A stretch of 64,000 nt of DNA from Dehalococcoidia bacterium (GTDB lineage Bacteria; Chloroflexota; Dehalococcoidia; Lucifugimonadales; G963668185), in assembly GCA_965237445.1 (NCBI GenBank), contig OZ250142.1:386824-450823 (forward strand), given 5' to 3'. The notes under the pieces were generated by a model, which was not told the origin of the DNA, searched no databases, and worked only from the letters and a program-made list of their open reading frames with translations. Positions 1 through 51,189 of this stretch are shown here, piece by piece. Both the position numbers and the translations under genes were made by a program. The number at the start of each line of letters is the position of its first letter. The first letter of the stretch is position 1.

Positions 1-611
1 ACCGGATATGGATCGGTTATGAGCCGATGTTCGCAGACTACAGCTTTGTGAGGCCGGAGGTGATGGTGGAGTTTGGGGCGCGTTCAAGCGGGGAACCTCG
101 CGAGGAGCGTCCGATAGAGTGCGATGCGGCCCCGTACATTTCGGAGGTCGCCTTCCCGTCAACGCACTCCTTCGTCATGCTGGCTGAACGCACATTCTGG
201 GAGAAGGCGACGGCAGTACACGTCTTCTGCCGTCAAATGAGAAGCCGTGGGGAGCGGCTCTCGCGGCACTGGTATGACCTGGTCCGGCTGGACGATGCCA
301 GTCTTGCCGGGAAGGCTCTGGCCAACCGAGACGTTGCTCAAGCGGTGGCGCGACACAAGTCGATGTTCTTCAGGGAAAAGGACGCCGAAGGCAGTTGGAT
401 CGACTACGAGGCAGCGGTTTCCGGCGGACTGCAGCTTTTGCCTGACGGCACGGCCTATGAGGCCCTTGCGGAAGACTACGGCAGAATGCTCAGCGACGGA
501 ATGCTGCTTGAAGACGAAGAGCGATTCGAGGTGCTGATGGGCAGGTGCGCCGATCTTCAAGAGAGGGCCAACGAAGGGATGCGGCTCGGCGGGCCGGAGC
601 TTCAAGTTTGA
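1..611 (+). CDS. AbiEii/AbiGii-type nucleotidyltransferase toxin family protein, C-terminal part (5' end lies off-window)
   Basis: The frame is open from nt 3 to the stop at 609-611. Segments such as TFWEKATAVHVF and RHWYDL resemble the DUF1814/AbiEii family; this is recalled from memory, not searched. Confidence 0.55.
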   Translation, partial: RIWIGYEPMFADYSFVRPEVMVEFGARSSGEPREERPIECDAAPYISEVAFPSTHSFVMLAERTFWEKATAVHVFCRQMRSRGERLSRHWYDLVRLDDASLAGKALANRDVAQAVARHKSMFFREKDAEGSWIDYEAAVSGGLQLLPDGTAYEALAEDYGRMLSDGMLLEDEERFEVLMGRCADLQERANEGMRLGGPELQV

Positions 612-682
612 GTTTCATGATTCCTGAGCAACGGACACGGAGCGGTGGGGTGGCGGTAGTGTCCGGATAGGAGGGGTGCAGG

Positions 683-892
683 ATGGCTGATGGGTTTGTT
701 GGGCGGGTTAGGTGACTTGCGTTCGATGTGTTTGGGACGGTGATGGACCTTGCGGGCAGCCTGTCGGGGCCGGTTGGGGATTTTCTGAGAGCGCATGGGT
801 CGGCGATGTCGGGGGAGGCGTTCTATGCGGACTGTCGGGACCGGCAGCGCGTCGAGCAGTACCAGGACAACCTGCTGATGCTGGGACACAGC
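683..892 (+). pseudogene. Truncated duplicate of the 5' end of the haloacid-dehalogenase-like gene at 2646-3339
   Basis: 210 nt align almost base for base with 2635-2844. Homology stops abruptly at 892/2844. An upstream TGA sits where the full-length copy has TGG. Confidence 0.75.
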
Positions 893-981
893 ACTGACTT
901 AGAACCAGTTAGCAAAGCGGTGCGGAGAGGCCTTTCGCCGATGGGCATCATAACGGGTGGACAGGCAAACTGATTCCGCAT

Positions 982-1731
982 TCACGGTTTGCGAAGTGTG
1001 TAGATTATGAACTCGGGAACGCGCAGGTTGTCGCTGACGAAGGGGTAGCGCGCGGCTTGAGCATCAGTTGGCGTTGGCTCGCGGATGTCTTCAACTGCGA
1101 AGCCGATGTCCAAGAACGTTCGGACGTGCGTGGACAACGTACGGTGGAACATGGTCCACGGCTGATCATCCTGCCGAGCAATGTCTCGCTCACCTTCATC
1201 GAAGTAATGATCGACTGGATAGTGGAGCTTCAGGCTACCTTGCTTAATCCAGTTGAGACTTGCCGAGATCATTGGATGAAGGTTGCACACGACAAAAAGC
1301 CCATCTGGACATAGTATTCGAAACGCCTCCCGAACGGCGCTTTGCATGTCTGAAACATCCACAAGAGAGATGTACGAGATTGCAACCTCGAACTCGTTTT
1401 CGGGCAGTTCATTGAGGTCCTCCATGTCACCGATCAGATAGGCCTCGTTTGTGACACGATGCATCCTGGCGAACTCTATCAGCGGACGGCAAAGGTCCAG
1501 GCCGGTAACCACGGCGCCTCGCTCAGCGAGCATCCGACTGAAGCTGCCCTCGCCACAGCCCAGGTCGATCACCTTGCGATCAGCAACGTCACCAATTGCG
1601 TCAAGCATCCAGCCATCAAGCATGGCCTCACGGTGTGATGTCTCGATGTCCTGGATGCGGCTGATCCAGTCCTCCGCCCTCGCTTCCCATTCGGCCTTCA
1701 GTTCATCCTTCAGGGTGGATTGGTCGGACAT
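982..1731 (-). CDS. Class I SAM-dependent methyltransferase
   Basis: 249-aa ORF with the motif VIDLGCGEGSFSRMLAERGAVVTGLDL (SAM-binding motif I). GC is visibly lower than in the flanks. Confidence 0.85.
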   Translation of the reverse strand: MSDQSTLKDELKAEWEARAEDWISRIQDIETSHREAMLDGWMLDAIGDVADRKVIDLGCGEGSFSRMLAERGAVVTGLDLCRPLIEFARMHRVTNEAYLIGDMEDLNELPENEFEVAISYISLVDVSDMQSAVREAFRILCPDGLFVVCNLHPMISASLNWIKQGSLKLHYPVDHYFDEGERDIARQDDQPWTMFHRTLSTHVRTFLDIGFAVEDIREPTPTDAQAARYPFVSDNLRVPEFIIYTLRKP

Positions 1732-2645
1732 CGCGGCTCCTTTGGGAAATCTGGTGAATACAGCCGCGTCTCAGTTGAGACCAATTGTTCACCAGGCTTG
1801 CAACAGGTCTTGCGATTTCACGATAGCTCAAGACAACTCATAGGTATGGAGGCTTTTGAGTTTACCCATTTGCATGAAGTCTGGTCAGGCTTTGGTAACA
1901 GCTTTCGAAGCCTGCGCTACTTCGGCCGGCCAATCCGAGTGCCGAGTGAAACGAGAATACTTGTGGCCGAGACATTCTGAGTGCGGTGGGCGATCTGCGA
2001 ATCGCACCTTGTATCTTGGTGAAGGTGGAGAGGTATGGTTGGCAGGCGAAATTTCTCCGGCCCCTCTGGATTCCCGCTAGCCCCAGGTTCCCGCTGTTGC
2101 GGGAATGCGGGAATGACGATGCAGGTAGGGTGCCGTTGAAGGTTCGACAAGTGCTATGCGAACGGAAGAGGGAGGGGCCTTCGCCGCGTTGGTTGATTTC
2201 GAGGGTTGAGGGCGATTCGCCCCTACATGGGAGATGGGTTAACGGGAATTGAAGGGGGCCTTTCGACGGGTCAGGGCGGTGCAGTGACAAACGTGGCATG
2301 CGACGTTTGACCGGCGTTGTCGAGTTTCGAGGCGGCAGGCAGACTTGAAACTCACCACTACGATTGGCGGAGCGAGGGTACGAAGCGAACGAAAGGCAGG
2401 CACGAGGCCTGCCAGTACACGCCAGCCTTGGAAAGTCTCCGAGCGAGGTCAGAGCGTAGAGGCTGAAAACTAGTTTCACTGGAGAGTATCGTGGTGGCTG
2501 GCGGGAAGCTTTAGATTTCTCGGCTTCGCTCGAAATGACAGTGGGGGTCCGGCTCCCGCTTCTGGGCCTGGAGGGAGTCAGTGAGAGCGGACACAAATCT
2601 CTTGTGTAGGGTTACGGAACATGGGAGAGAGGGCATGGCTGATGG

Positions 2646-3339
2646 GTGTCTTGGCGGGTGAGGTGGCTTGCGTTCGATGTGTTTGGGACGGTGATGGACC
2701 TTACGGGTAGCCTGTCGGGGCCGGTTGGGGATTTTCTGAGGGCGCATGGGTCGGCGATGTCTGGGCGAGGCGTTCTATGCGGACTGGCGGGACCGGCAGC
2801 GCGTCGAGCAGTACCAGGACAACCTGCTGATGCTGGGACACAGCGGCTACCTGGAGACGTGTCGCCGGGCGTTCGTCTACTGCCTTAAGAAGCACGACGT
2901 CAGCTATACCGAGGAGTCGGTCCGGGAGTTTATGAAGGTGTATCAGGGCTTGCAGCCCTTTGGGGACGCGGTCGAAGGGCTGCGAAGGCTGTCGGGAAGC
3001 TATGGGCTGGTCGCGCTGTCGAACGGGGAGCAGTGGTACCTCGAAAAACTGCTGGGCAACAACGTGCCGATCACGTTCGACGCAATCATATCGGTGGACC
3101 AGGTCGGGGCGTTCAAGCCTTCGCCGGGGATCTATCGCAAGGCGGTGCAGCGGCTGGGGTGCGAGCCGGGGGAGATCATGATGGTGGCGGCGCACTCGTT
3201 CGACATCCTGGGCGCGCAGGCGTGCGGGTTCAAGGCGGCGTACGTGAACAGGTACAGGCTGCCGACGGAGGTTTCTGAGTACCAGCCGGAGATCGTCGTG
3301 GGGGATTTCGTGGAGCTGGCGTCGGTGTTGCTGGGGTGA
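2646..3339 (+). pseudogene. HAD-superfamily L-2-haloacid-dehalogenase-like hydrolase, frameshifted near 2761-2766
   Basis: The N-terminus AFDVFGTVMD (HAD motif I) is in one frame (2646-2888). The remainder (FYADWRDRQRVEQYQ...AHSFDILGA) is in another frame (2746-3339). The duplicate at 683-892 is 1 nt shorter at this point and reads through in frame. Confidence 0.75.
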
Positions 3340-3445
3340 GGGGGAGTGGGCGTTCGCGCCTGGATTGACCCCCTCGAGCGACGTGGCAATGCGCATCGGG
3401 GAGTCGTTTGGCCGCGACGGGGTCCAGCCGGGCACCTCTGGATAC

Positions 3446-4502
3446 TCTAAATTCACAAACGAAGTGCAACACCTCGTTCGACGGGGTGTTGTCATGGGAA
3501 AGCATTATGGACATGTCACCATTGAAGAGCGATGTGAAGTTGCCCGTCTACAAGCCGAGGGTCGCGTAGAGGCGATCCGGCAAATCGCTGCAGGTCTGGA
3601 TCGCTCGCCATCGACAGTTGCTCGGGAGCTGAAGCGCAATGGGTCACGAACCGGTGGATACAAGCCGGTGTATGCCCACCAGCAGGCACGTGCCCGCCGG
3701 TGGCGAGGCTCACGCATGGAGCGGGACGATGCTCTGCGGGCACGGGTGCTCTCATGCCTCCAACAGGGCTGGTCGCCCGAGCAGGTTGCCGGTCGGCTTA
3801 AGTTGGACGCCGGCCGCGTGGTCATATCTCACGAGAGCATCTACAGGTTCATTTACGGTCAGTTTGCGCGCACACAGGACTATGGGTGGAGGCACTACCT
3901 GCCTCGCGCCAAGTCGAAGCGCGGCTGGAGGGGCCGCAGAGGTGGAAGTCCTGCCTCCTTCATCGCCAAGCGCCGTCCCATCGCTGAGCGTCCCAAGAGC
4001 GCTGCGGACCGCCGCACTCCCGGCCACTGGGAGGCAGACCTGATGCTGTTCAGAACCTATGGACATGCCGTGCGGAGTGTTCGGTGGCCATGCACGAACG
4101 CCACTCCCGTATCCTCATTGCCGTCAGACCTCCTGGCAAGGCTTCCGGCCCCATTGCCGACGCCATGACACAGCTGCTCGGACAGTTCCCGCCCCAGTGG
4201 CGACGCACGGTTGCCTTCGACAACGGGACCGAATTCGCTCTCCACTACCGACTCCACAATCTTGGTATCGAGACCTTCTTCTGTGATGTTCGCTCTCCCT
4301 GGCAGAAAGGGGGCATCGAGAACGCCATCGGCCGGTTGAGACGAACCCTGCCTCGCAAAACGGACCTGACCGCGTTGGCGGACGCACAGTTCACTCACTT
4401 GCTTCAGGCCTACAACAATACTCCACGCAAATGCCTCAACTACAAAACTCCAGCAGAGATCCTTCTGAATCAGGTGTTGCGCTTGAAATGTGAATCCACC
4501 TG
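3446..4502 (+). mobile_element. IS30-family insertion sequence (~1.06 kb)
   Basis: Imperfect terminal inverted repeats: attcacaaacgaagtgcaacacc (3451-3473) and the reverse complement of 4473-4495, with 18/23 matches. The flanks rejoin as a continuous sequence in an uninterrupted paralogous repeat copy at 4781-4860. Ends are uncertain by about 5 nt. Confidence 0.8.
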
Positions 4503-6607: not shown

Positions 6608-6798
6608 TCCGGCGGCGGGCGAGGCAGATCGCCGGCCTCTACGGGATTGGGGTCGCGCCGTTCGGTGCACGGATGACGGGAGGAGCGGGTGTCGTGGGGG
6701 TGGTTGGGGGGTGGGCGGTGGGCGGAGCGCACGTGCCGGGTTGGTGTTGAGCCGTTCGATGCTGGAGTCCCGGCCCCTGGATTCCCGCCTGCGGAGAG

Positions 6799-6916
6799 CT
6801 TTGCATAACCAACTTTCGTGGGGAGGAGAACCCCATCCCAACCTTCCCCAGTCTGCTGGGGAAGGGGTCAAAGGAATGCTTCCGCTGGCGTAGGCGGCAG
6901 TTTTGCAAAGGTCTCC
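6799..6916. repeat. MITE-like element, copy A (copy B at 41743-41861)
   Basis: ~118 bp, about nine in ten bases shared with copy B by eye. Terminal inverted ctttgca...tgcaaag and an internal palindrome ccttcccca..tggggaagg. Confidence 0.75.
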
Positions 6917-41654: not shown

Positions 41655-41742
41655 GATAACCAGGAGAGGGGTCTTTGCAATGCTGCCAACCACCCGCTCA
41701 CTGCCCGTGTCACCCTCACCCTACCCTCTCCCATCGAGGAGA

Positions 41743-41861
41743 CTTTTGCATAACCAACTTTCGTGGGGATGAGAACCCCATCCCAACCTTCCCCAGCAGA
41801 CTGGGGAAGGGGTCAAAGGAGTGCTTCCGCTGGCGTAGGCGACAGTTTTGCAAAGGTCTCC
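41743..41861. repeat. MITE-like element, copy B (copy A at 6799-6916)
   Basis: Same termini and internal palindrome as copy A. Preceded by a caccctcaccctaccctctccc block that also occurs at about 5093-5125. Confidence 0.75.
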
Positions 41862-48962: not shown

Positions 48963-49190
48963 GCTGTGTCCTCCGTTTTGCAGAGTATCCCGGCGGCTTT
49001 CTACGAAGCTTCCTCGGCTTTGGCGGACCCTTCGGCACGTTGCGTGAGTGAGGAATTCGGCGCCACTCCGAAAGCGCCTGAATTGTAAGTTGCTGCTAGT
49101 AGGCCGTCAACACGGGCCGCCCCATAGCAGCGTTGGTTTGGCCGGGATGAAATCGGGGCTGCTAGAGCAATTGGTTATGGAGTTACTCGA

Positions 49191-50024
49191 TCAGTGATCC
49201 TTAAGTCGGGCCGTTGCCGCCTCTTGAAACCTCTTACGCATCACTGAACGTTCTCCGAGGTCCAAGTCTCTTCCCAAGGCCGTTCTGCAGGAAGCCAACA
49301 GCCTGCTGTCGATCACCCTCGGAATGGGTGAGGAGGCCGCGAGGTTGTCTACGTCTACTAGCTCTTCCGGACTAAGAGAGCCAGCGAACCCCTCAATAAC
49401 TACACCAATGGCAGATTCCGGGTCCGGGACATCGGCAGAAGGCTTGATCATTCGCGGCAAGGACTCATGTACCACGGAGCCTTGCCTCAATCTCAAGAAT
49501 TCATCAATGTCGTCTTGACTCCATTCGGTTGTTGTATCCGATTCTTGCAGGAGCGTAAGCGACTGTGAGCCGCGGCTGGGTGCAATCCCCAAAAGGTGAA
49601 TGCGGACACCGAAGCTCTGAGCTAACTGAACACCTATTCTTAGGTCCTCATCTCCTGAGAGTACAATGGCATCGGTTATTGCCCGATTACGTGCAAGCTC
49701 AACAAGGTCTGTGACGATAAGGGAGTCAACACCCTTCTGCTGGCCGGTAGGAGTAACGATGCCAAGCCTCAACTTGACGTCGTCCAGGAACGACAGTTTC
49801 TCCTGTTGAGCGGAGAGTCTCCCCTTAACCAAGCCGTCATACCAATAGATGCGGAGCAGGCTTGCGCTGCTGGCTCTGCTCTGGGCAGCGACCCGTAGCT
49901 TTTCAATAATCTCGGGAAGTTTGAGGTCAACTCTTTCGCGCCGCAACTTCTGCCCGGAGAGGGCCTTGGATCCCTGAGCGTAGAGATAGCCAGCATCGAC
50001 AAAGACAGCGTAGCGCAAAGCCAT
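49191..50024 (-). CDS. NYN-domain (LabA/PIN-like) protein with an unassigned ~110-aa C-terminal extension
   Basis: AVFVDAGYL, QKGVDSLIVTDL and VLSGDEDL match NYN/LabA acidic motifs. GC is lower than in the surroundings. Confidence 0.7.
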   Translation of the reverse strand: MALRYAVFVDAGYLYAQGSKALSGQKLRRERVDLKLPEIIEKLRVAAQSRASSASLLRIYWYDGLVKGRLSAQQEKLSFLDDVKLRLGIVTPTGQQKGVDSLIVTDLVELARNRAITDAIVLSGDEDLRIGVQLAQSFGVRIHLLGIAPSRGSQSLTLLQESDTTTEWSQDDIDEFLRLRQGSVVHESLPRMIKPSADVPDPESAIGVVIEGFAGSLSPEELVDVDNLAASSPIPRVIDSRLLASCRTALGRDLDLGERSVMRKRFQEAATARLKDH

Positions 50025-50037
50025 TACCTAAGTCGCA

Positions 50038-50066
50038 AAAAAAGAGGATCCCCGAAGGAATCCTCA
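50038..50066 (-). terminator. Intrinsic terminator 14 nt upstream of the NYN start codon
   Basis: The minus strand reads gaggauuccuucggggauccuc followed by uuuuuuu. Confidence 0.7.
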
Positions 50067-50169
50067 GTATAGCCTACGCTCCAACTTTTCTAATAACGGG
50101 AGACGCTAGGCAGTTTCATAGTACTTTGGCACGGCGATTCCGTCAACACGGGCCTCTGGTGAAAAATGT

Positions 50170-50293
50170 GTTCCATTATGTTCCGTTTTGTTCCATTTCG
50201 TAGCTGGACCGAGGGGAGATACGAAACTGGAACGGAACATCTTTGGAACCTAAACGGAACCACTCCGGCACCAGAATGGAACACAAATGGAAC
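50170..50293. repeat. Nine phased GTTCC/GGAAC pentamers (3 in one orientation, 6 in the other)
   Basis: GTTCC at 50170, 50180 and 50190. GGAAC at 50229, 50234, 50245, 50256, 50278 and 50289. Spacings are 10, 10 / 5, 11, 11, 22, 11 nt. Central stem ttccatttcgta / tacgaaactggaa with a 17-nt loop. Confidence 0.85.
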
Positions 50294-50395
50294 ACCAGGG
50301 CATGGCCCGTTCGGCGGGCTCAGGACCCATAAGGGGGAGGGCTTGGTCCAATGACCCGATATCAGGTTGGAATCCGGTGTTCTTCTCATCAATGC

Positions 50396-50424
50396 ATATT
50401 AGCACAGCAGTTCGCTCAAGGCAA
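50396..50424 (-). promoter_or_regulatory. Putative sigma70-type promoter (-35 TTGCCT, 17-nt spacer, -10 TAATAT)
   Basis: Read on the minus strand. There is no experimental support, and eye-matched promoters are error-prone. Confidence 0.3.
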
Positions 50425-50499
50425 CTCTGCGGAGGCCAAAAGCGGGCGGCGCGGCGTTGGCTGGTAACATGACTCCGAGTCTACGTCCGGGGGACTGCC

Positions 50500-51189
50500 A
50501 TGAGCGACAACGGTCACATTACATCTGAACTCTTTCAGTTCCTGGCCGAACTCAGGCTGAACAACGAGCGCACCTGGTTCCAGGCCAACAAGGGCCGCTA
50601 CGAGAAGCACGTAAAGCAGCCGCTCCTTGAGTTTATCGCGGACTTCGGGGAACACCTGGAGCGCGTCAGCCCGCACTTCGTGGCGGACGCCCGCGGCAAC
50701 GGCGGCTCGATGTTCCGCATCTACAGGGACATGCGCTTCTCCAAGGACAAGACCCCGTACAAGACGGCCGCCGCCATGCAGTTCCGGCACGAGCGCGGTA
50801 AGGACGTTCACGCGCCCGGCTTCTATGTCCACCTGGAGCCCGGATCGGTGTTCTTCGGCGCGGGCATGTGGGGGCCGGACTCGGCCTCGCTGAAGCGGAT
50901 TCGCGCCGCTATCGACACCGGCGCCGTCAGGTGGCGCGGCGTGATGGACGACGACGACTTCGCGTCGACATTCTCGCTGCACGATGGCGGGCTCAAGAGG
51001 GCGCCGAAGGGCTACGACCCAGATCACCCGCTAATCGAGGACCTGAAGCGCAAGCACTTCATCGCGTCGGCGGAGCTATCGGAGGACGAGGCGTGCGAGC
51101 CGGGCTTCATGTTCGAGGTAGCGGACCTGTGCGATAGGGCATCGGGTTTCGTGAGGTTTCTCACCGACGCCGTGGGGCTGAAGTTCTGA
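50500..51189 (+). CDS. DUF2461 (TIGR02453) family protein
   Basis: FLAELRLNNERTWFQANKGRYE, RIYRDMRFSKDKTPYK and GFYVHLEPG are characteristic of the family. Confidence 0.8.
   Translation: MSDNGHITSELFQFLAELRLNNERTWFQANKGRYEKHVKQPLLEFIADFGEHLERVSPHFVADARGNGGSMFRIYRDMRFSKDKTPYKTAAAMQFRHERGKDVHAPGFYVHLEPGSVFFGAGMWGPDSASLKRIRAAIDTGAVRWRGVMDDDDFASTFSLHDGGLKRAPKGYDPDHPLIEDLKRKHFIASAELSEDEACEPGFMFEVADLCDRASGFVRFLTDAVGLKF

What the first reader, a model, noticed from the sequence alone, without database searches (positions are those of the whole stretch)
50038..50424. Promoter-to-terminator unit of ~350 nt containing nine helically phased GGAAC/GTTCC repeats and a long hairpin, ending 14 nt before the NYN start codon
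The 475-bp divergent spacer between the NYN and DUF2461 genes contains three elements on the minus strand:

- a sigma70-like TTGCCT-N17-TAATAT (50424-50396)
- three GTTCC pentamers exactly 10 nt apart (50170, 50180, 50190), facing six GGAAC pentamers spaced 5, 11, 11, 22 and 11 nt (50229-50293). As RNA these pair into three stacked helices of about 26 bp around the stem ttccatttcgta / tacgaaactggaa.
- a textbook intrinsic terminator (gaggauuccuucggggauccuc plus U7) at 50066-50038

The terminator ends only 14 nt before the NYN ATG. The NYN gene can therefore only be expressed by read-through.

The unit could be an independent small RNA. It could be a cis-acting attenuator or leader that senses a protein or ligand. 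At the DNA level, it could be an iteron-like array for a DNA-binding protein, since the 10-11-nt phasing puts all sites on one helix face. I know of no described RNA family or operator with this layout.
Basis: partly seen in the sequence, partly recalled or inferred. Interest (0 to 1): 0.65.

Follow-up and report, generated by a model that had tools for sequence, protein, structure and literature searches.

The report
Repeat element beside conserved NYN leader RNA
The stretch is not one unit: it holds a 151-base palindromic repeat, also found at unrelated sites in other sponge-microbiome genomes, lying next to a short structured leader RNA with a terminator that precedes this NYN nuclease gene family in six bacterial phyla and matches no Rfam family.

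Summary
The sequence features are all real. Nine GGAAC/GTTCC pentamers lie in 124 bp, where about 0.3 are expected. There is a long hairpin, and a hairpin plus U7 that ends 12 nt before the NYN ATG.

They do not form one promoter-to-terminator unit.

1. **The pentamer array (window 50309-50159).** It is a 151-nt palindromic element and is absent upstream of all 80 orthologous NYN genes. It recurs at two unrelated loci, with identical length and pentamer phasing and 77-80% identity. Its 46-nt arm reaches 30- to several-hundred-fold the flanking depth in four of the five sponge-type metagenomes laid, in many different contexts. Function is unknown. It most resembles a MITE/REPIN-like repeat or a protein-binding array.

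2. **The terminator.** It is the second hairpin of a roughly 75-nt RNA (50116-50033) with its own conserved sigma70 promoter (50146-50118). A covariance model finds this RNA directly upstream of NYN in 78 of 80 loci from six phyla. Covariation is strong: 96.6% of cells paired and 17 of 19 pairs with compensatory changes. Rfam 15 has no match.

NYN expression by read-through is plausible and conserved. The leader probably limits or feeds back on expression of the nuclease.

The parts
50396..50424 (-). It is a weak match and its function is doubtful.
   Evidence: The sequence was read. It matches 8 of 12 positions, below the 9/12 threshold of the scan. No counterpart exists upstream of the L289 copy of the array element.
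50159..50309 (-). A 151-nt palindromic repeat element. It reads GCCCTGG-TGTTCC...GGAACACATTTTTC on the minus strand and carries all nine pentamers.
   Evidence: Two further copies exist, L289:9994-10144 and L290:46-196. They are 77-80% identical to the window copy and align over 151 columns without gaps. The element is absent from 80 NYN loci.
50162..50207 (-). The 46-nt arm, the most conserved part of the element. It holds three GGAAC units 10 nt apart, CUACGAAA, and a trailing U5.
   Evidence: Metagenome word depth is 143-3727 here against 3-22 in the flanks, in X3, X11, X15, X16 and X17. An exact 46-nt unitig is present. Flanks differ from the window on both sides. The arm also appears in RNA-run contigs. 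It is 93-100% identical in L289 and L290.
50234..50293 (-). The opposite arm. It holds five conserved GTTCC sites in strict 11-nt register (element positions 17, 28, 50, 61 and 72). A sixth site at 50229-50233 occurs only in this copy.
   Evidence: The site at 50229 is replaced in L289, in L290 and in metagenome variants.
50118..50146 (-). Promoter of the NYN leader RNA, TTGACG-N17-TACTAT.
   Evidence: It is a 9/12 match in the scan. A TTGAC-type -35 and TAnnAT-type -10 appear at the same relative position in many of the orthologous loci listed (by eye, not counted).
50033..50116 (-). The conserved NYN-leader RNA motif. P1 hairpin spans 50111-50072. P2, the terminator hairpin, spans 50065-50044. 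U7 spans 50043-50037.
   Evidence: Model R1 scores it 88.6 bits, E = 2e-20. The same motif lies directly upstream of NYN in 78 of 80 loci. Covariation gives 96.6% of cells paired, 17 of 19 pairs with double changes, and 0 of 500 shuffles as good. Rfam has no hit.
49191..50024 (-). NYN-domain (LabA/DUF88-like) protein gene of 277 aa.
   Evidence: Pfam PF01936 at E = 5.6e-9. More than 6000 homologues were found. Acidic residues typical of NYN are invariant.
50500..51189 (+). Divergent DUF2461/TIGR02453 gene. It is not linked to either element.
   Evidence: Pfam and NCBIfam matches. It has no counterpart in any of the 80 NYN loci.

Best explanation
The 387-bp finding is a mosaic of two unrelated modules that happen to lie side by side.

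**Module A (50309-50159).** This is one copy of a 151-nt non-coding palindromic element.
- It has an arm of five GTTCC sites in 11-nt register and an arm of three sites in 10-nt register, around a variable centre.
- It occurs at unrelated intergenic places in other genomes of the same sponge-type communities.
- It most likely belongs to the MITE/REPIN/ERIC-Correia class of small interspersed palindromic repeats. Its phased 10-11-nt units would then be binding sites for a trans-acting transposase- or recombinase-like protein (inferred).
- It has no conserved link to the NYN gene.

**Module B (50146-50033).** This is the conserved expression cassette of this NYN nuclease family.
- It consists of a sigma70 promoter, a roughly 75-nt RNA made of a sequence-conserved bulged hairpin (P1), and a very stable UNCG-loop intrinsic terminator (P2 plus a U-tract). 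The NYN start codon follows 12-45 nt later.
- Most transcripts should stop at P2, giving a short RNA. NYN is made only from read-through transcripts that carry P1-P2 as their 5' leader (inferred from the anatomy).
- I take P1 to be a protein-recognition hairpin. Through it the NYN nuclease, or a partner, would limit its own expression, as the rne, rnc and pnp leaders do (inferred).
For: **The modules are separate.**
- The array is absent upstream of 80 NYN orthologues.
- The last 115 nt or so of the spacer are about 90% identical in species whose NYN proteins are only 65% identical.
- The array recurs in L289 (next to a DHDPS gene) and in L290 (about 540 nt upstream of an SBP_bac_5 gene), with no NYN gene or leader nearby.

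**Module A.**
- Three copies are exactly 151 nt long. The pentamers and their phase are conserved while the centre diverges.
- The 46-nt arm reaches 30- to several-hundred-fold the flank depth in X3, X11, X15, X16 and X17, with unlike flanks.
- It has no conserved ORF, since L290 has a stop after 13 codons. It has no conserved promoter.
- The same genomes carry another short palindromic repeat family.

**Module B.**
- The covariance model hits directly upstream of NYN in 78 of 80 loci from six phyla, and essentially nowhere else in 588 kb plus 648 kb of control sequence.
- Covariation is strong.
- A GC-rich hairpin with a U-rich tail was detected before the start codon in 76 of 80 loci.
- Downstream neighbours are unrelated to one another, so the RNA is the only conserved partner of the gene.
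- RNA-run contigs span the leader and the coding sequence in a near-identical strain and in Sinorhizobium-like strains.
Against: **Module A.**
- I saw no target-site duplication.
- The window holds only one copy in 64 kb.
- In run X1 this genome's contig passes through the element unbroken, with only one other contig carrying it. Copy number in this genome is therefore low, which is atypical for a MITE.
- The uneven conservation (46 nt near-identical, centre about 50%) points to functional constraint rather than recent spread.
- With three copies there is no covariation to judge an RNA role.

**Module B.**
- I found no alternative antiterminator pairing by inspection.
- The short RNA has not been shown as a discrete species, because contig depth is flat.
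- NYN binding or cleavage of P1 is untested.
- In L037, L078 and a few other loci the U-tract is poor.
Confidence: 0.7

Rival explanations
1. A single roughly 350-nt transcript runs from the promoter at 50424 to the terminator at 50038. Its GGAAC/GUUCC helices sense a protein or ligand and control read-through into NYN.
For: All the pieces lie on the NYN strand in the right order. The whole stretch folds better than shuffled versions, z = -3.4.
Against: The array is missing from all 80 orthologous NYN upstream regions. A conserved promoter lies between the array and the terminator. The array exists elsewhere without NYN. The upstream promoter is only an 8/12 match.
Confidence: 0.04
2. The array is a double-stranded DNA binding platform, comparable to an operator, iteron, centromere or att site. 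An oligomerising protein would read the 10-11-bp phased TGTTCCRTTT units. In this genome it may also affect the adjacent NYN-leader promoter.
For: The 5' arm sites keep a perfect 11-nt register (element positions 17, 28, 50, 61, 72) and the other arm a 10-nt register (116, 126, 136). This holds in all three copies, which also have identical total length. Two of the phased sites (50, 61) are not needed for the long hairpin. The three GGAAC units sit at about -64, -74 and -84 from the inferred leader start (my count).
Against: No gene for a cognate binding protein is shared by the three contexts. The other copies are not next to recognisable promoters. Near-identity of 46 nt across genomes is more than transcription-factor sites usually show.
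Confidence: 0.17
3. The 151-nt element is a structured non-coding RNA, or an RNA-level element such as a long-hairpin terminator or an RNase III or protein target, read on the NYN strand and ending at the U5 at 50166-50162.
For: The long hairpin is conserved in three copies and followed by AUUUUUC. The 46-nt arm appears in contigs of two RNA-type runs at higher depth than the flanks.
Against: There is no conserved promoter upstream. There are no compensatory changes, and the covariation term is +1.12. RNA contigs continue 40-100 nt past the U-run. Rfam gives no match. The two arms are unequally conserved, which pure pairing does not explain.
Confidence: 0.12
4. Module B is not a cis leader. 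It is a separate small RNA that acts as the partner of the NYN nuclease, as an antitoxin or inhibitor in the manner of type III toxin-antitoxin pairs. The terminator would set the RNA-to-protein ratio.
For: The order promoter, structured RNA, terminator, nuclease gene is that of ToxIN-type loci (my knowledge; reviews PMC5086642, PMC3401426). The RNA is the only conserved neighbour. The distribution is patchy and crosses phyla, with near-identical RNA in unrelated sponge symbionts. Disrupted NYN genes occur in L081 and in pNGR234a, where it lies next to a RES-Xre pair.
Against: The RNA is not a tandem repeat. NYN is not a ToxN/AbiQ-fold toxin. PADLOC gives no meaningful hit. Toxicity is untested.
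Confidence: 0.25

Closest known systems
Autoregulatory 5' leaders of ribonuclease genes (rne 5' UTR, rnc and pnp leaders)
   Same: A conserved structured leader lies directly upstream of a nuclease gene and is the only conserved neighbour. The hairpin is conserved in sequence as well as in pairing, which suggests protein recognition.
   Different: This leader ends in a strong intrinsic terminator before the start codon. The nuclease is an uncharacterised NYN protein. No cleavage or binding has been shown. The RNA matches no Rfam family.
Type III toxin-antitoxin loci (ToxIN, CptIN, TenpIN) and the AbiF-type RNA-regulated system (bioRxiv 10.1101/2025.04.15.648962)
   Same: The layout is one promoter, a structured RNA, a terminator that throttles read-through, then a ribonuclease gene. 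The module sits in varied genomic contexts.
   Different: The RNA is a single two-hairpin unit, not tandem 34-40-nt repeats. The protein has the NYN/PIN-like fold rather than the ToxN/AbiQ fold. Toxicity and RNA-protein assembly are untested.
Small interspersed palindromic repeats (ERIC/IRU, Neisseria Correia elements, REPINs, MITEs)
   Same: The element is 151 nt, non-coding and an imperfect long palindrome. Its arms are conserved and its centre is variable. It is intergenic, occurs at unrelated loci, and is seen in transcripts.
   Different: I saw no target-site duplication. Copy number in this genome is apparently low. The arms are built of phased 10-11-nt sub-repeats and are unequally conserved. 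No associated transposase or RAYT gene was identified.
Phased binding arrays (ParR/parC iterons of plasmid R1, lambda attP arm-type sites, Tn7/Mu end sites, P1 pac hexamers)
   Same: Several short sites lie one helical turn apart, in two opposed clusters flanking a variable core of about 40 bp.
   Different: There is no neighbouring par, int, transposase or terminase gene in any of the three contexts. The comparison rests on recalled architecture only.

Membership tests
Any Rfam 15 family | A covariance-model score at or above the family's gathering threshold | tested here: not met
   There were no hits in the window at gathering score. The only hit at E<=10 in 49900-50600 was Pseudomon-1 at 15 bits against a threshold of 50. 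Twenty orthologous loci gave only tRNAs. Atu_C8 and BjrC68 scored 11-18 bits against thresholds of 39-50, driven mainly by the terminator hairpin.
Rho-independent terminator | A GC-rich hairpin immediately followed by a U-run | tested here: met
   The window has a 9-bp stem with 5 GC pairs, a UUCG loop and U7. The hairpin is conserved with compensatory changes. U-rich tails, with at least 4 U in 9 nt, follow the hairpin in nearly all loci.
Riboswitch or transcription attenuator | A conserved sensor domain supported by covariation | tested here: met
   All P1 pairs except the invariant top ones show double changes.
Riboswitch or transcription attenuator | A mutually exclusive antiterminator pairing with the terminator arm | tested here: inconclusive
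   Inspection found no conserved complement to the 5' arm of P2. P2 sequences differ between lineages without a matching change in P1. No formal alternative-fold search was run.
Type III toxin-antitoxin | An antitoxin RNA made of tandem direct repeats of about 34-40 nt | tested here: not met
   The leader is a single P1-P2 unit. The GGAAC units are 10-11 nt long and are not linked to NYN.
Type III toxin-antitoxin | A terminator between the RNA and the toxin gene, under one promoter | tested here: met
Type III toxin-antitoxin | Toxic endoribonuclease neutralised by its RNA | not testable with these tools
   This needs expression experiments.
MITE | Terminal inverted repeats and no coding capacity | tested here: met
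   GTGTTCCATT and AATGGAACAC form the outer 10 bp, with further imperfect pairing inside. The ORFs differ between copies and are interrupted in L290.
MITE | Target-site duplication at the ends | tested here: not met
   The flanks of the three copies share no direct repeat. The boundaries are uncertain by a few bases.
MITE | Many copies within one genome | tested here: inconclusive
   There is one copy in 64 kb. The contig in X1 is unbroken. Other metagenomes show 17 to over 100 laid contigs and up to several-hundred-fold depth. Copies per genome could not be counted.
Iteron or centromere-like array | At least three direct repeats spaced one helical turn apart | tested here: met
   Spacings are 10, 10 in one arm and 11, 22, 11, 11 in the other, conserved in three copies.
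Iteron or centromere-like array | An adjacent gene for the cognate binding protein (Rep, ParR or similar) | tested here: not met
   Neighbours are NYN and DUF2461 in the window, DHDPS in L289 and SBP_bac_5 in L290.
CsrB/RsmZ-type protein sponge RNA | GGA motifs exposed in hairpin loops | tested here: not met
   In the predicted folds the GGAAC units sit inside helices, paired with GUUCC.

The most novel reading that the evidence does not exclude
The NYN nuclease and the roughly 75-nt two-hairpin RNA transcribed just ahead of it may form a self-contained, horizontally mobile RNA-protein module. This would be a new, non-repetitive kind of type III-like toxin-antitoxin or defence pair, present in at least six bacterial phyla, in which the terminator sets the RNA-to-nuclease ratio and P1 is the nuclease's docking site.
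Probability: 0.2. Interest if true: 0.8.

Novelty: new member of a known kind. Interest (0 to 1): 0.5.

Why it matters
NYN/LabA-type proteins are abundant in bacteria, yet the function and control of this subfamily are unknown. A leader RNA that travels with the gene across six phyla, has strong covariation and matches no Rfam family gives a concrete handle. It predicts a short terminated RNA, regulated read-through, and a specific hairpin that the nuclease or a partner should recognise. These predictions can be tested in cultivable rhizobia that carry the module.

The pentamer element adds a new small repeat family with unusually regular helical phasing, from poorly studied sponge symbionts.

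For the scan itself, the case shows that a striking array next to a gene can be an unrelated neighbour.

Tried and rejected
- **Collection scans for more array copies.** I scanned metagenome and viral contigs with the pattern GTTCCRTTN{2,3}GTTCCRTTN{2,3}GTTCC. The pattern was too loose. This gave only two further copies.\n- **Rfam leads.** Atu_C8, BjrC68, isrD and Pseudomon-1 all scored far below threshold and matched mainly the terminator.\n- **Structure of the NYN protein.** The AlphaFold model has pLDDT 85, but Foldseek against the PDB returned only generic Rossmann-like folds.

Full report
**1. Observation**

I read the minus strand of 49800-50700.
- TTGCCT-N17-TAATAT lies at 50424-50396.
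- Six GTTCC and three GGAAC lie on the NYN strand between 50293 and 50170.
- The hairpin GAGGAUUCC-UUCG-GGGAUCCUC is followed by U7, which ends at 50037. The NYN ATG is at 50024.

The window holds 144 GGAAC/GTTCC in 64 kb, about what shuffles give. Nine in 124 bp, against 0.28 expected, is therefore a real cluster, and it is the only one in the window. The stretch folds better than shuffles, z = -3.4. The terminator scan finds the hairpin plus T-run.

Two qualifications apply.
- The scan reports a better promoter, TTGACG-N17-TACTAT at 50146-50118. It lies between the array and the terminator.

**2. Context**

A 277-aa NYN-domain protein lies at 49191-50024 on the minus strand. A DUF2461/TIGR02453 protein lies at 50500-51189 on the plus strand.

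The closest NYN relatives are in Dehalococcoidia MAGs. One of the two RNA-type runs that hold part of the spacer is labelled sponge metagenome. Rfam 15 has no match in the window at gathering score, and nothing credible in 49900-50600 at E<=10.

**3. The array is not part of the NYN gene's conserved upstream region**

I aligned 32 NYN homologues and fetched 80 loci from species-representative genomes, with the NYN match on the plus strand.
- None has more than three GGAAC/GTTCC within 150 bp upstream of NYN, and most have none or one.
- None matches a two-unit version of the repeat.
- None matches the element by BLAST.
- DUF2461 is not a neighbour in any of them.

**4. What the array is**

*Metagenome depth.* I laid Logan contigs of four metagenomes on 49900-50600.
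- Word depth is 1400-3700 in three runs and about 190-260 in X17 over 50164-50211, against 3-22 for the flanks.
- Depth is moderately raised over 50260-50307.
- Many contigs match only 50161-50207 and then run into unlike sequence on both sides.
- In run X3 there is an exact 46-nt unitig (50162-50207) at depth 44, where this genome has 8.5-18. Several 160-390-nt contigs carry the same segment with 3-4 differences.
- In run X1 this genome's contig passes through the element unbroken, and only one other contig carries it.

The element is therefore multi-context in the communities but low-copy in this genome.

*Further copies.* A loose pattern scan of public contigs gave only chance hits. Searching the protein database with translations of the element's spurious ORFs found two called ORFs. 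Their contigs hold true copies.
- L289:9994-10144 lies about 170 nt after a DHDPS gene, in a repeat-rich contig end.
- L290:46-196 lies about 540 nt upstream of an SBP_bac_5 gene.

*Shared anatomy.* From GCCCTSG to CACATTTTTC all three copies are exactly 151 nt and align without a gap. Overall identity to the window copy is 77-80%.
- GTTCC sits at element positions 17, 28, 50, 61 and 72, a strict 11-nt register with one slot empty.
- GGAAC sits at 116, 126 and 136.
- The 46-nt arm with the three GGAAC units and the trailing U5 is 93-100% identical.
- The central 35 nt or so is largely different.
- The sixth GTTCC of the window copy (50229-50233) and the central UUUCGUA/UACGAAA stem are peculiar to this copy.

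*What the element lacks.*
- No promoter is conserved upstream.
- No ORF is conserved.
- No target duplication is visible.
- No NYN leader lies nearby in L289 or L290.
- The helices are invariant, so three copies give no covariation. The covariation term is +1.12.

*Other observations.* Contigs of two RNA-type runs contain the 46-nt arm in several contexts but continue past the U-run. Related strains, about 6% diverged, keep the element at this locus, with changes in the spacers and not in the pentamers. The window and L289 also share a different short palindromic repeat, so such elements are part of these genomes' make-up.

*Reading.* I take the element to be a member of the broad class of small interspersed palindromic repeats. 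Its phased sub-repeats are most simply explained as protein-binding sites. A conserved DNA-binding platform or a structured RNA cannot be excluded.

**5. What the terminator belongs to**

*Conservation.* BLAST and nhmmer of the spacer against the 80 loci showed that only its last 115 nt or so are conserved.
- Conservation is about 90% in the three species whose NYN proteins are only 64-65% identical.
- It is detectable by nhmmer or BLAST in some 25 loci, among them a Spirochaetia, a Pseudomonadales and a Silicimonas locus.

*Layout.* Listing the upstream regions shows the same order almost everywhere:
- a TTGACA-type -35 and TAnnAT -10;
- a few bases later a bulged hairpin with conserved CUCCC and GUUGGAG at its top;
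- a short CUA-containing linker;
- a GC-rich hairpin with a UGCG or UUCG loop;
- a U-rich tail;
- the start codon 16-59 nt after the hairpin.

*Structure support.* An alignment of 40 sequences folds into these two hairpins, and 14 of 19 pairs show compensatory changes. Model R1, built from that alignment, gives the following.
- It scores the window copy 88.6 bits at 50116-50033.
- It finds a hit at E<=0.012 directly upstream of NYN in 78 of 80 loci. A second copy in L003 comes from a local duplication.
- L058 and L075 have a visibly related variant.
- In 648 kb of unrelated loci it finds only the sister assembly of this window and one marginal hit.

On the 79-sequence alignment:
- 96.6% of cells are paired, against 78% in shuffles;
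- 17 of 19 pairs have changes on both sides;
- 0 of 500 shuffles reach the observed values;
- sliding the partners by one column drops pairing to about 60%.

*Distribution and neighbours.* By record titles the carriers belong to Chloroflexota, Pseudomonadota (alpha and gamma), Acidobacteriota, Binatia, Spirochaetia and Gemmatimonadota (Longimicrobium). Downstream neighbours are unrelated to one another, and half are on the other strand. The RNA is thus the only conserved companion of the gene.

*Known families.* No Rfam family matches the Dehalococcoidia or the alphaproteobacterial version. My literature searches found no description.

**6. How module B probably works**

*Shown.* The structure is conserved, its position is fixed, and a terminator-like P2 precedes the start codon.

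*Inferred.*
- Transcription starts about 7 nt after the -10, near 50111.
- Most transcripts end at the U-run near 50038, giving an RNA of about 74 nt.
- NYN is translated only from read-through transcripts.

*Limited support for read-through.*
- A 176-nt contig of an RNA-type run spans 50092-49929 in a near-identical strain.
- RNA-seq contigs of Sinorhizobium-like strains span leader and coding sequence.
- Contig depth cannot show a separate short RNA.

I saw no antiterminator pairing. P1 is conserved in sequence as well as in pairing, which suggests a protein-recognised hairpin. My preferred model is a brake, with possible feedback by the nuclease itself, as in the rne, rnc and pnp leaders.

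The alternative, a type III-like RNA partner, is favoured by three points.
- The locus layout matches.
- The spread is patchy across phyla.
- Disrupted NYN genes occur: a 98-bp tandem duplication in the sister assembly L081, and a TGG-to-TAG change in pNGR234a, where the gene sits beside a RES-Xre pair.

Against it, the RNA is not repetitive, and neither toxicity nor binding has been tested. The predicted NYN structure (pLDDT 85) gave no informative PDB match for the C-terminal helical domain.

**7. Verdict**

The single 350-nt unit and an NYN-linked GGAAC sensor are not supported. The terminator-before-ATG design is real, conserved, and part of an RNA motif that matches no Rfam family. The array is a separate element of unknown function that recurs at unrelated loci.

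Noticed in passing
window 6796-6912 and 41740-41860; L289 11173-11213 and 11331-11358: A second short palindromic repeat family of about 115 nt occurs twice in the window. Its ends are the inverted CTTTGCATAACC... and ...GTTTTGCAAAGG. Its core hairpin CCCCATCCCAACCTTCCCCAG-N5-TGGGGAAGGGG occurs twice more in the unrelated contig L289.
   Followed up: partly
L081 3651-4582 (sister assembly of this window): The NYN gene carries a 98-bp tandem duplication after codon 59. It shifts the frame, so only a 193-aa 3' ORF was called. This is either a pseudogene in that strain or an assembly error.
   Followed up: partly
L291 (Sinorhizobium fredii NGR234 plasmid pNGR234a, record 294407-295351): The leader motif is intact (36 bits). 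The NYN reading frame has TAG in place of the invariant Trp of IYWYDG, and RefSeq annotates only the 3' part. The gene lies next to a RES/Xre toxin-antitoxin pair.
   Followed up: partly
L003 1313-1758 and 2494-2980: There is a local duplication of a small gene (ORFs 1313-1567 and 2494-2769, not scanned against Pfam) together with the NYN leader RNA. The extra leader copy now precedes a 123-aa ORF. HicA/HicB-like ORFs lie just upstream, judged from the translations by eye.
   Followed up: partly
window 28184, 28280, 28376 (minus strand): GGAAC recurs at exactly 96-nt intervals. This suggests a 96-nt (32-codon) tandem repeat, probably inside a coding region.
   Followed up: no
window 49082-49110 (minus strand): A good sigma70-like match, TTGACG-N17-TACAAT (10/12), lies between the NYN stop and the downstream oxidoreductase gene. 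It suggests that gene has its own promoter and that NYN is monocistronic.
   Followed up: no
L205 8037-8100 (viral contig): This is the single marginal hit of the NYN-leader model outside NYN loci (20.7 bits, E = 0.012). I did not check whether an NYN gene follows.
   Followed up: no
MT836498.1 7851-8696 (phage record from human faeces): This is the only phage record with a full-length relative of this NYN protein (40% identity). Its upstream region was not examined for the leader.
   Followed up: no
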